DNA of 6,636 nucleotides from a virus (taxonomy: Duplodnaviria; Heunggongvirae; Uroviricota; Caudoviricetes). The stretch lies in the IMG/VR virus record IMGVR_UViG_2531839200_000006. The stretch is one strand, 5' to 3'. Below, piece by piece: positions 1-3,000 of the stretch; positions within the stretch are counted from its first letter, which is position 1, and every line of letters begins with the position of its first letter. The position numbers are program-made.

Positions 1-3000
1 ATTGCCGCCCACTGTGAGTCATATTCATCCTGACTTTCCAGAACCATACGAATCGCCCGCTGACGGACTTCGGGGGAAAAACGAGTATTTTTAGTCATCC
101 TGTTTACCTCTTTCTCAGGGAGTTTAGTCTCCAGGATTTCCGGGGCGGTTCACCGGGTTCTGTATTTTTGCCCTCAGTAAGCTGGCAATGGCGTTATCCA
201 GTACGCTTGATTCCATCCCTTTATCCATGCAGCGACAGTTTCCTGATTTAACACCGCGCCATCTTGACCATCTGAAAACCCTTATTGCTAAGGGGGCAAA
301 TCAGTGTGCGCGGGCAGGGGATAAATTACCGGATTTACTTGATGAATATATCAGAGCAACAACTGAATAATATGATGAGCGCTGTCACAACTGCATTACA
401 GCCCCTGATAAGGGCATTGCCGGTGACGCCAGTTGAATGGGCTGATCAAAATTATTATCTGCCTAAAGAATCTTCATATGGTGAGGGCGAATGGAAAACG
501 CTGCCATTCCAGATCGCCATCATGAACAGTATGGGGAATGATCAGATCCGCACTGTTAATCTGATTAAATCTGCCCGTGTTGGCTATACAAAGATGTTGC
601 TGGGGGGGGGCGGGTATTTTATTGAGCATAAATCCCGAAACAGTCTGCTTTTTCAGCCCACGGATTCTGCCGCTGAAGATTTTATGAAGTCTCACGTGGA
701 GGCGACGATTCGGAACGTGCCATGCCTGAAAGACCTTTCCCCATGGCTGGGTCGTAAACATCGTGACAATACTCTCACGCTGAAACGCTTTTCATCGGGC
801 GTCGGTTTCTGGTGCCTGGGCGGCGCTGCCGCCAAAAACTACCGTGAAAAATCCGTTGACGTGGTCTGCTATGACGAACTTTCCTCGTTCGAGCCGGATG
901 TCGAAAAAGAGGGCTCGCCAACCCTGCTGGGGGATAAGCGTATTGAGGGGTCGGTGTGGCCAAAATCCATTCGCGGCTCGACGCCTAAAATCAAAGGCAC
1001 CTGCCAGATCGAAAAAGCCGCTAACGAGTCGGCGCATTTTATGCGTTTTTATGTGCCCTGCCCGCACTGTGGGGAGGCGCAGTATCTGAAATTTGGCGAT
1101 GAGTCCACGCCTTTTGGGCTTAAATGGGAGAAGGACAGCCCTGAAAGTGTTTTCTACCTCTGTGAACATCATGGCTGCGTGATCCATCAGTCTGAACTGG
1201 ACCAGAGCAACGGGCGGTGGATCTGTGAAAACACGGGCATGTGGACCCGTGACGGTCTGACGTTTTTCAGCGCCCGGGGTGATGAAATTCCGCCGCCGCG
1301 CTCCATCATGTTCCATATCTGGACGGCGTACAGTCCGTTCACCACCTGGGTACAGATTGTCTATGACTGGCTGGATGCACTGAAAGATCCCAACGGCCTG
1401 AAAACCTTTGTGAACACCACGCTGGGCGAGACCTGGGAAGAGGCCGTGGGCGAAAAACTCGATCACCAGGTACTGATGGATAAGGTGGTGCGTTACACGG
1501 CGGCGGTGCCTGCCCGGGTGGTTTATCTGACGGCGGGCATTGACTCGCAGCGAAACCGTTTTGAGATGTATGTCTGGGGATGGGCTCCGGGAGAGGAAGC
1601 CTTTCTGGTGGATAAAATCATCATTATGGGGCGTCCTGATGAGGAAGAGACGCTGTTACGTGTGGATGCGGCGATCAACAAAAAATACCGCCATGCGGAT
1701 GGCACCGAAATGACTATTTCCCGTGTCTGCTGGGACACCGGGGGGATCGATGGTGAAATTGTTTATCAGAGATCAAAAAAACACGGTGTTTTCCGGGTGC
1801 TGCCGGTAAAAGGCGCATCTGTCTATGGCAAGCCGGTGATCACCATGCCAAAAACCCGCAATCAGCGGGGCGTGTATCTGTGTGAAGTGGGAACGGACAC
1901 CGCAAAAGAAATTCTCTATGCCCGTATGAAAGCCGATCCCTCGCCTGCGGATGAAGCCACGTCGTATGCCATCCGTTTTCCTGATGATCCGGAGATTTTT
2001 TCGCAGACAGAGGCGCAGCAACTGGTGGCGGAAGAGCTGGTGGAGAAGTGGGAAAAAGGAAAGATGCGTCTGCTGTGGGATAACAAAAAGCGGCGTAACG
2101 AAGCGCTGGACTGCCTGGTGTATGCCTACGCGGCATTACGTGTGTCCGTGCAACGCTGGCAGCTTGATCTGGCTGTACTGGCAAAATCCCGGGAAGAAGA
2201 GACGACCCGGCCAACCCTGAAAGAACTGGCAGCGAAGCTGTCCGGAGGAGTGAATGGTTACAGTCGCTGAACTGCAGGCGCTGCGTCAGGCGCGCCTTGA
2301 TTTATTAACCGGTAAACGGGTGGTGTCTGTCCAGAAAGATGGTCGCAGAATTGAATATACGGCGGCTTCTCTGGATGAGCTTAACCGGGCGATCAATGAT
2401 GCGGAGTCGGTACTGGGGACAACCCGGCGTCGCCGTCGTCCGCTGGGAGTGAGGTTATGAAACGAACGCCTGTCCTGATTGATGTGAACGGCGTTCCGCT
2501 TCGTGAGAGTCTCAGCTACAACGGGGGCGGTGCAGGATTTGGCGGGCAAATGGCGGAGTGGTTGCCACCGGCGCAGAGTGCCGATGCGGCCCTGCTGCCC
2601 GCGTTGCGTCTGGGGAATGCCCGGGCAGATGATCTGGTGCGCAATAACGGAATAGCGGCCAATGCGGTGGCACTGCATAAGGATCACATTGTCGGGCATA
2701 TGTTTCTTATCAGCTACCGTCCGAACTGGCGCTGGCTGGGGATGCGGGAGACCGCAGCAAAAAGCTTTGTCGATGAGGTGGAGGCGGCCTGGTCGGAATA
2801 CGCCGAAGGGATGTCTGGCGAGATCGACGTGGAAGGAAAACGCACGTTCACGGAATTTATCCGTGAAGGTGTGGGCGTTCATGCGTTTAACGGCGAAATC
2901 TTTGTGCAGCCGGTCTGGGATACGGAAACCACGCAGTTATTCCGTACGCGTTTTAAAGCCGTGAGTCCGAAACGGGTGGACACGCCAGGACACGGTATGG

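What the first reader, a model, noticed from the sequence alone, without database searches (positions are those of the whole stretch)
598..616. G9 homopolymer inside the terminase large-subunit gene, next to the N-terminal ATPase motif
Positions 602..610 are nine consecutive G, followed by CGGG, encoding GGGG within KSARVGYTKMLLGGGGYFIEHK. Recalled lambda gpA has VYAY at the same place, with the same length. A G9 tract is a classic slipped-strand mispairing hotspot, and a single G gained or lost would frameshift terminase after about 90 codons. It sits just downstream of the KSARVGY motif implicated in gpA ATP binding, so even in frame the Gly run may alter function. It could also be a sequencing or assembly error in a homopolymer.
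Basis: partly seen in the sequence, partly recalled or inferred. Interest (0 to 1): 0.5.

Follow-up and report, generated by a model that had tools for sequence, protein, structure and literature searches.

The report
Unstable poly-G run in prophage terminase
A run of nine G's inside the DNA-packaging (large terminase) gene of a crippled lambda-like prophage of E. coli O157:H7 arose recently by two T-to-G changes, and it now differs in length from genome to genome, so the gene is often frameshifted; this looks like ordinary mutational decay rather than a new mechanism.

Summary
Window 602..610 is G9, followed by CGGG, and encodes Gly88-Gly91 of a lambda gpA-type large terminase (gene 342..2270).

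The window is the packaging and head module of the O157:H7 Sp4/Sp14 prophage pair. It is defective here: IS629 cuts nu1, and the capsid gene E is truncated and fused to the tail gene V.

The run is derived. Most related E. coli prophages read GGGGGTGGTC (LGVVGY). Seven genomes not labelled O157 carry the one-step intermediate G8-TC. Only O157:H7-type genomes carry G9-C.

Length varies widely:
- Among 5,426 complete E. coli genomes, 193 records hold an exact G9 copy, 173 a G10, 33 a G8, and at least one a G11. All five G10/G11 copies and the first G8 copy inspected are annotated as frameshifted.
- In a 15-billion-protein collection, the products expected from G7, G8, G9, G10, G11 and G12 occur on 5, 52, 982, at least 1000, 98 and 30 contigs.
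- In-frame lengths are not favoured, and both prophage copies vary.

In a confident model, residues 88-91 lie mid-helix just after the P-loop. No homologue examined has more than two Gly there.

Best reading: a neutral slippage hotspot in a decaying gene. Some length calls may be assembly noise. Interest is modest.

The parts
602..610 (+). G9 homopolymer, the length-variable tract
   Evidence: Read directly. Lengths G8, G9, G10 and G11 were seen at the same site in complete O157:H7 genomes.
603..614 (+). Codons 88-91 of terL (GGG GGG GGC GGG = Gly-Gly-Gly-Gly). The ancestral-type sequence is GGG GTG GTC GGG (Gly-Val-Val-Gly).
   Evidence: The two derived T-to-G changes are at window 607 and 610.
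567..593 (+). KSARVGYTK, the P-loop-type nucleotide-binding motif of gpA-family terminases (codons 76-84)
   Evidence: K76, R79 and G81 are at least 90% conserved in 100 diverse homologues. In the model it lies between strand 71-76 and helix 82-95.
585..626 (+). Predicted helix 82-95 that follows the P-loop; it contains the Gly run
   Evidence: AlphaFold2 model from alignment A2, mean pLDDT 94.6. The best fold matches are large terminases.
342..2270 (+). Large terminase gene (lambda gpA type), 642 codons, in frame in this window
   Evidence: Pfam GpA_ATPase (E 5.8e-54) and GpA_nuclease (E 1.6e-71). The PGAP start is inferred from the annotation of identical copies.
1..150 (-). End of an IS629/IS1203 element (start of its orfA on the minus strand) that interrupts nu1
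   Evidence: 100% match to the IS1203 copy annotated inside Sakai Sp14.
151..370 (+). 3' remnant of the small terminase gene nu1
   Evidence: Pfam Phage_Nu1, C-terminal profile positions 125-163 only. Aligns to intact nu1 of Sakai Sp14 from about nt 291.
2254..5928 (+). Head genes W (2254..2460), portal B (2457..4049), protease/scaffold C (4039..5544) and decoration D (5581..5928), all apparently intact
   Evidence: Pfam gpW, Phage_portal_2, Peptidase_S49 and HDPD.
5986..6252 (+). Major capsid gene E truncated to 88 codons. Homology to intact E ends at 6236, and a gpV-like tail gene sequence follows.
   Evidence: Pfam Phage_cap_E positions 1-80 of 329. Comparison with intact E of strain Z247. 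The same truncation is annotated in Sakai Sp4 and Sp14.

Best explanation
The G9 tract is a recently created, mutationally unstable homopolymer in the large terminase gene of a defective lambda-like prophage lineage of E. coli O157:H7 (the Sp4/Sp14 pair).

Shown:
- The common allele in related E. coli prophages is GGGGG-T-GG-T-C, encoding Gly-Val-Val-Gly.
- Two T-to-G transversions, each turning a Val codon into a Gly codon, merged G5 and G2 into G9. An allele with only the first change (G8-TC) exists.
- At G9 the run differs in length between closely related genomes, from G7 to G12 and probably G5 to G14.
- Any length that is not 9 plus or minus a multiple of 3 truncates terminase at 93-115 residues.

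Inferred:
- The length changes arise by slipped-strand mispairing during replication.
- The changes are neutral. The prophages already lack a capsid gene, and here and in Sakai Sp4 they also lack an intact small terminase gene.
- Four Gly in the helix behind the P-loop probably weaken the in-frame protein.
- The T-to-G steps came from misalignment next to the G run or from A:T-to-C:G mutagenesis.
For: Derived state:
- DA33135 and 2013C-3264 read GGGGGTGGTC, PhiR12_1 reads GGGAGTCGCC, and phage 21 reads GGGAGTGGAG.
- 56 of 114 close cluster representatives read LGVVGY and none reads GGGG.
- G8-TC occurs in 7 complete genomes not labelled O157.
- No record in the phage collection matches at 99% or more.

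Length variation:
- Records with at least one exact copy number 193 for G9, 173 for G10 and 33 for G8. Strain 319 has G11.
- Exact predicted products occur on 5 (G7), 52 (G8), 982 (G9), at least 1000 (G10), 98 (G11) and 30 (G12) contigs from NCBI and Logan.
- EC4115 and TW14359 (same outbreak, different centres, by my recollection) both show G10 in the ISEc8-linked copy, whereas Sakai shows G9 in both copies.

No selection for frame:
- About 100 records hold G10 but no G9.
- Both the ISEc8-linked copy and the copy with intact nu1 are found out of frame.

Defective context:
- IS629 or ISEc8 interrupts nu1, and E is truncated. Asadulghani et al. 2009 (PMC2669165) also describe these prophages as defective.

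Structural position:
-.
Against: - Individual length calls are not fully reliable. Two assemblies of strain 86-24 agree on one G8 plus one G9 but place the G8 in different copies. The near-identical strains FRIK2455 and FRIK2533 show reciprocal G9/G10 states.
- The two copies are identical over at least 6.5 kb in Sakai, so reads may be assigned to the wrong copy. Fragments ending near the tract are present among the 40 cluster members read; P0128 (6 contigs) ends inside the Gly run.
- I built no phylogeny. Much of the G10 abundance could come from one inherited event rather than many.
- Neutrality is inferred. Asadulghani et al. found Sp4 DNA packaged in Sakai and attributed this to Sp14's terminase. 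If they are right, the GGGG protein works and its loss might matter.
- No read-level data were available.
Confidence: 0.7

Rival explanations
1. The length differences are mostly sequencing or assembly artefacts. On this view the true sequence is one fixed length (G9, or G9 in one copy and G10 in the other), and homopolymer miscalls, collapsed repeats or wrongly assigned reads create the apparent polymorphism.
For: - Two assemblies of strain 86-24 put the G8 in different copies.
- FRIK2455 and FRIK2533 show reciprocal states.
- The two copies are identical over at least 6.5 kb.
- Protein fragments that end just before or inside the tract (83-91 aa; some are labelled 'partial' by their sources) occur among the cluster members read.
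- From general knowledge, long-read platforms miscall G/C homopolymers.
Against: - Sakai has G9 in both copies, while EC4115 and TW14359 (from different centres, by my recollection) both have G10 in the same copy.
- Both 86-24 assemblies agree on the content, one G8 and one G9.
- Lengths three to five bases away from nine recur: G12 on 30 contigs, and products consistent with G14 and G5 on 4 contigs each. Consensus errors of that size are unlikely.
- Short-read Logan assemblies show the same spread.
Confidence: 0.13
2. The tract is a true contingency locus. Reversible slippage would switch the terminase of the copy with intact nu1 ON and OFF, and selection would maintain this to modulate packaging of the Sp4/Sp14 prophages, which carry effector and regulator genes, by helper phages.
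For: - The homopolymer sits early in the coding region and varies in length between close relatives.
- Asadulghani et al. detected packaged Sp4 DNA and proposed that Sp14's terminase does the packaging.
- Sp14 carries espJ, tccP and pchC, and Sp4 carries pchA.
Against: - Both prophages lack a major capsid gene.
- The tract also varies in the copy that has no small terminase gene, where a switch could do nothing.
- In-frame lengths are not enriched.
- Orthologues in intact prophages and in isolated phages lack the run.
- The in-frame product carries four Gly in a conserved helix.
Confidence: 0.07
3. The Gly run is an adaptive protein variant. On this view GGGG was selected for an altered ATPase or packaging property, and the homopolymer is a by-product.
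For: - The single-step V89G allele occurs in frame in seven other genomes. In strain Z247 it lies within an intact-looking nu1-A-W-B-C-D-E-FI module.
- Position 90 is variable among relatives.
Against: - Val89 is kept in 113 of 114 close representatives.
- Gly occurs at position 89 in 5 of 111 distant homologues and at position 90 in 2 of 111, and none has more than two Gly in 88-91.
- The allele is seen only in defective prophages and is frequently frameshifted.
Confidence: 0.05

Closest known systems
Bacteriophage lambda gpA / phage 21 gp2 large terminase (Pfam GpA_ATPase + GpA_nuclease)
   Same: - Same two-domain architecture and the same nu1-A-W-B-C-D-E gene order.
- Same KSARVGY(S/T)K motif and the same length (642 aa, as in phage 21 gp2 and PhiR12 gpA).
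- About 82% DNA identity to phage 21.
- Large-terminase fold.
   Different: - Residues 89-91 are Gly-Gly-Gly instead of Val-Tyr-Ala (lambda type), Val-Glu-Ala (phage 21) or Val-Val-Gly (most E. coli prophages).
- The coding sequence is a G9 run that changes length.
- The gene sits in a prophage without a capsid gene and, in this window, without an intact small terminase gene.
Homopolymeric-tract contingency (phase-variable) genes of Neisseria, Haemophilus, Campylobacter and Helicobacter (from general knowledge)
   Same: A G/C run of about 8-12 bases near the 5' end of a coding region, whose length differs between closely related isolates and sets the reading frame.
   Different: - There is no evidence of selection for switching.
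- The run is absent from orthologues and lies in a defective element.
- It also varies in a copy where the switch could have no effect.
- E. coli is mismatch-repair proficient and is not known for using such loci.
Frameshift pseudogenes in decaying prophages (the O157 Sakai 'defective prophage pool', PMC2669165)
   Same: Same prophages (Sp4/Sp14) and the same general process: IS insertions, deletions and frameshifts accumulating in morphogenesis and packaging genes.
   Different: That paper scored all lambdoid Sakai prophages except Sp4 as encoding intact terminase. In the passages I searched for 'Sp14' and 'terminase', it mentions neither the Gly run nor the tract's instability. In many other O157:H7 genomes the Sp14-type gene is frameshifted at this tract.

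Membership tests
Lambda gpA-type large terminase | N-terminal GpA_ATPase domain and C-terminal GpA_nuclease domain | tested here: met
   Pfam PF05876 (E 5.8e-54, residues 48-293) and PF20454 (E 1.6e-71, residues 324-601).
Lambda gpA-type large terminase | Conserved KSARxGY(S/T)K nucleotide-binding motif between a beta strand and a helix | tested here: met
   Present at codons 76-84. K76, R79 and G81 are at least 90% conserved in 100 homologues. In the model, strand 71-76 is followed by a loop and then helix 82-95.
Lambda gpA-type large terminase | Large-terminase fold | tested here: met
   Foldseek top hits are Sf6 gp2, T4 gp17, HK97, D6E and P74-26 TerL (E 2e-10 to 2e-5). There is no sequence-level PDB hit.
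Lambda gpA-type large terminase | Lies between nu1 and W-portal in a lambda-type head module | tested here: met
   Pfam hits of the neighbouring genes and annotation of identical copies. In this window nu1 is cut by IS629.
Lambda gpA-type large terminase | ATPase, cos-cleavage and packaging activity | not testable with these tools
   There is only an indirect published inference that Sp14's terminase packages Sp4 DNA in Sakai.
Simple-sequence contingency (phase-variable) locus | Homopolymer of about 8 or more bases in the coding region, placed so that length sets the frame | tested here: met
   G9 at codons 87-90. Lengths G7, G8, G10 and G11 give products of 93-115 aa.
Simple-sequence contingency (phase-variable) locus | Length polymorphism among closely related strains | tested here: met
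   with the caveat that some calls may be assembly errors.
Simple-sequence contingency (phase-variable) locus | Reversible switching within a clonal population | not testable with these tools
   No read-level or single-colony data were available.
Simple-sequence contingency (phase-variable) locus | The switch controls a phenotype under selection, and the tract is conserved as a tract | tested here: not met
   Orthologues lack the run. In-frame lengths are not enriched. The prophage is defective. The tract also varies in the copy without nu1.
Programmed frameshift or transcriptional slippage site | Slippery run conserved in orthologues, with the alternative frame encoding a functional extension | tested here: not met
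   Orthologues have no run. After the tract the +1 and -1 frames stop within about 5 and 26 codons.

The most novel reading that the evidence does not exclude
The poly-G tract may act as a stochastic ON/OFF switch for the only lambda-type terminase in O157:H7 that can serve the shared Sp4/Sp14 cos site. Individual cells or lineages would then differ in whether these prophages, which carry effector and regulator genes (pchA, pchC, espJ, tccP), can be packaged into helper-phage capsids and mobilised.
Probability: 0.07. Interest if true: 0.6.

Novelty: new member of a known kind. Interest (0 to 1): 0.3.

Why it matters
There are three practical points.

1. The terminase that a key study of the O157 Sakai prophage pool scored as intact, and proposed as the enzyme packaging Sp4, carries an unusual Gly run in its ATPase core. 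It is frameshifted at this tract in a large share of other O157:H7 genomes. Conclusions about inter-prophage complementation drawn from Sakai may therefore not carry over to other strains.

2. The tract is a clear example of how a homopolymer is built by substitutions next to an existing run and then becomes unstable. The ancestral, intermediate and final alleles are all still observable.

3. The tract is a likely trouble spot for assembly and annotation of O157:H7 genomes. It lies in two near-identical copies, contigs break at it, and annotators flag pseudogenes there. If the variation is real, it could serve as a fast-evolving marker.

None of this changes how terminases or phase variation are understood.

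Tried and rejected
- **First structure prediction.** The alignment of 36 close homologues gave mean pLDDT 38.6, and I discarded the model. A second run with 100 diverse homologues gave 94.6.
- **Sequence and profile searches of the PDB.** These found no terminase, only zinc-ribbon matches to the CxxC...CxxC insert.
- **Assumption that the window was Sakai Sp4.** I rejected this. Window 1..150 is IS629, not ISEc8, and no complete genome shows this junction in one piece.
- **Inversion between the two prophages as the cause of the reciprocal G9/G10 states in FRIK2455 and FRIK2533.** I rejected this because ISEc8 stays at the same chromosomal position in both.
- **First probes of 99 and 100 bases.** They did not separate G9 from G10, because 99/100 counts as 99%. 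I repeated them with 44-base flanks (then 25, 26).
- **Literature searches.** I found no description of this tract.
- **Programmed frameshifting.** I considered and rejected it (see the membership test).
- **Tandem-repeat scan of the window.** It found nothing.
- **Second copy in EC4115 and TW14359.** I did not try to locate it, because its coordinates could only be guessed.
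Full report
**1. The observation**

Window 602..610 are nine G, followed by C and GGG. In frame this reads CTG GGG GGG GGC GGG TAT, giving L87-G88-G89-G90-G91-Y92 of a 642-codon gene at 342..2270. The start is taken from the annotation of identical copies. It is the only run of 8 or more bases in the window. Base composition alone predicts about 0.13 such G runs in 6.6 kb. The run is therefore unusual but not decisive by itself.

**2. What the window is**

Pfam assigns the following:
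- the gene to GpA_ATPase plus GpA_nuclease;
- the neighbouring genes to gpW, the lambda-family portal, an S49 protease, decoration protein D, and the first 80 of 329 positions of major capsid protein E;
- the short ORF upstream to the C-terminal end of Nu1.

The window matches hundreds of O157:H7 chromosomes at 100% over a 628-base test segment (window 373..1000). From 151 to 6636 it differs at two bases from both prophage Sp4 and prophage Sp14 of strain Sakai. Those two prophages are identical to each other over this stretch.

Window 1..150 is the end of an IS629/IS1203 element that cuts nu1. Sakai Sp4 instead has ISEc8 inserted 35 bases upstream, and Sakai Sp14 has an intact nu1. No complete genome shows the window's IS629 junction in one piece.

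Homology to an intact capsid gene stops at 6236, after which a gpV-like tail sequence follows. This deletion is shared by Sp4 and Sp14.

Asadulghani et al. 2009 (PMC2669165) describe both prophages as defective in head formation, and Sp4 as lacking an intact terminase because of the IS in nu1. They scored Sp14's terminase as intact and proposed that it packages Sp4 DNA, since the cos sites are identical.

**3. The run is derived**

At the same place, relatives read as follows:
- PhiR12_1, about 95% identical: GGGAGTCGCCGGG (LGVAGY);
- phage 21: GGGAGTGGAGGCT (LGVEAY);
- prophages with intact nu1 in strains DA33135 and 2013C-3264: GGGGGTGGTCGGG (LGVVGY).

Among 114 cluster representatives at 78-98% identity, 56 read LGVVGY, Val89 is kept in 113, and none reads GGGG. 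G9 therefore differs from the common allele by two T-to-G changes, at window 607 and 610. Each converts a Val codon into a Gly codon and joins G5 and G2 into one run.

The one-step intermediate G8-TC (LGGVGY) exists in seven complete genomes not labelled O157. In strain Z247 it lies in an intact-looking nu1-A-W-B-C-D-E-FI module. In strain 97-3250 it lies next to a module truncated by ISEc22.

No record in the phage collection matches the region at 99% or more. I saw the full G run only in O157:H7-type chromosomes.

**4. Length varies**

I used probes with 44- or 45-base flanks, so that any indel or mismatch drops identity below 99%. Records with at least one exact copy number 193 for G9, 173 for G10 and 33 for G8. 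The union of G9 and G10 is 293. About 73 records therefore hold one of each, and about 100 hold G10 but no G9. Strain 319 has G11. All five G10/G11 copies and the first G8 copy inspected are annotated as frameshifted pseudogenes.

Both copies vary:
- The ISEc8-linked copy is G10 in EC4115, TW14359, 7784 and FRIK2533, and G8 in one 86-24 assembly.
- The copy with intact nu1 is G10 in strains 272 and FRIK2455, G11 in strain 319, and G8 in the other 86-24 assembly.

A second census looked up the exact predicted products in a collection of 15 billion proteins:

| Tract | Product | Contigs |
|---|---|---|
| G7 | 93 aa | 5 |
| G8 | 114 aa | 52 |
| G9 | 642 aa, identical to the window's protein | 982 |
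| G10 | 94 aa | at least 1000 (capped) |
| G11 | 115 aa | 98 |
| G12 | 643 aa, five Gly, in frame | 30 |

Other members of the same clusters fit G14, G5-C, G7-TC, and a G5-to-G4 slip in the ancestral allele.

**5. Real or artefact?**

For real variation:
- Sakai shows G9 in both copies.
- EC4115 and TW14359 both show G10 in the same copy. I recall them as isolates of one outbreak sequenced at different centres.
- The two 86-24 assemblies agree on one G8 plus one G9.
- Lengths three to five bases from nine recur.

Against:
- The two 86-24 assemblies put the G8 in different copies.
- FRIK2455 and FRIK2533 show reciprocal states, with ISEc8 in the same place in both.
- Some short protein fragments in the same clusters end just before or inside the tract, e.g. 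P0128, which stops inside the Gly run.

The copies are identical over at least 6.5 kb, so assignment of a length to a particular copy is unreliable. My judgement is that the polymorphism is real but some individual calls are noisy.

**6. Position in the protein**

A first model from close homologues failed, with mean pLDDT 38.6. With 100 diverse homologues, found and aligned, the model reached mean pLDDT 94.6. It shows strand 71-76, loop 77-81 and helix 82-95. Its best structural matches are the large terminases of Sf6, T4, HK97, D6E and P74-26. Residues 88-91 therefore sit in the middle of the helix that follows the P-loop.

Across 111 homologues at 31-70% identity, the pattern after KSARxGYTK is [MIL][LIV][LV][AG][AV][IVL][GA]Y. 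Gly occurs at position 89 in 5 and at position 90 in 2, and none has more than two Gly in 88-91.

From general knowledge, consecutive Gly residues destabilise helices, and lambda residues near here (K76, K84) have been implicated in ATP use. I could not find an open-access source for the lambda residues. Reduced function of the in-frame protein is therefore an inference. The published proposal that Sp14's terminase packages Sp4 points the other way.

**7. Mechanism and rivals**

The best-supported reading has three steps:
1. Substitutions beside an existing G run created a long homopolymer.
2. The homopolymer now changes length by slippage.
3. The changes are neutral, because the prophage cannot make capsids and often cannot make small terminase.

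In-frame lengths are not favoured, and the tract varies equally in a copy where terminase could not work anyway.

The rivals are an assembly artefact, a selected ON/OFF switch, and an adaptive Gly variant. They are weighed in their own section of this report. Programmed frameshifting is excluded, because orthologues lack the run and the other frames stop within about 5 and 26 codons.

**8. Novelty**

I found no paper that describes this tract. RefSeq annotation already marks many copies as frameshifted. It is a new example of a familiar phenomenon, of modest interest.

Noticed in passing
window 1..150 (junction at about 151): The end of an IS629/IS1203 element interrupts nu1 at about nt 291. 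This is a different IS and a different site from the ISEc8 insertion in Sakai Sp4. No complete E. coli genome in the collection shows this junction as one piece, so the window comes from another O157-type assembly or from a strain-specific IS629 hop.
   Followed up: partly
window 5986..6252, junction at about 6236/6237: The major capsid gene E is cut after about 84 codons and joined to a gpV-like tail gene, so E (3' part), FI, FII, Z, U and the start of V are deleted. The same deletion is in both Sakai Sp4 and Sp14.
   Followed up: yes
window 151..6636 versus L001 (Sakai Sp4) and L008 (Sakai Sp14): Sakai Sp4 and Sp14 are identical to each other over these 6.5 kb. Both differ from the window only at 5652 (C/A) and 5964 (G/T). 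This implies a recent duplication or gene conversion between two prophages 1.5 Mb apart.
   Followed up: partly
L004 versus L014 (strain 86-24, two assemblies); L012 versus L013 (FRIK2455 and FRIK2533): Independent assemblies of one strain, and two near-identical strains, carry the same pair of tract lengths but assigned to opposite prophage copies. The ISEc8 position is unchanged. This points to gene conversion between copies, very fast slippage, or wrong assignment of reads within the long repeat.
   Followed up: partly
L016 and L017 (strains 97-3250 and Z247), locus position about 7534: A one-step intermediate allele, G8 followed by TC (LGGVGY), occurs in frame in seven complete genomes not labelled O157. 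In Z247 it lies inside an intact-looking packaging and head module, so V89G alone may be tolerated.
   Followed up: partly
proteins P0138, P0142, P0144, P0148, P0149 and P0152: Public assemblies also hold truncated products that fit slips in the ancestral allele (LLGWSG, including an O55:H7 strain), a G7-TC allele (LLGGSG, on a 5,678,205-base contig, the length of strain E2865's chromosome), a G14 tract (LLGGGGAG) and a G5-C tract (LLGAG).
   Followed up: no
window 602..614: With 11 or more G followed by CGGG, the sequence fits the canonical G-quadruplex pattern G3-N1-G3-N1-G3-N1-G3 on the coding strand. G9 and G10 do not. This might contribute to polymerase stalling or to contig breaks at longer alleles.
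   Followed up: no
window 1059..1172 (codons 240-277 of terL): A CxxC...CxxC zinc-ribbon-like insert (C240, C243, C274, C277), conserved in 90-100% of 100 diverse gpA homologues, is the only part of the protein that matches solved structures by sequence (RNA polymerase and ribosomal zinc ribbons).
   Followed up: no
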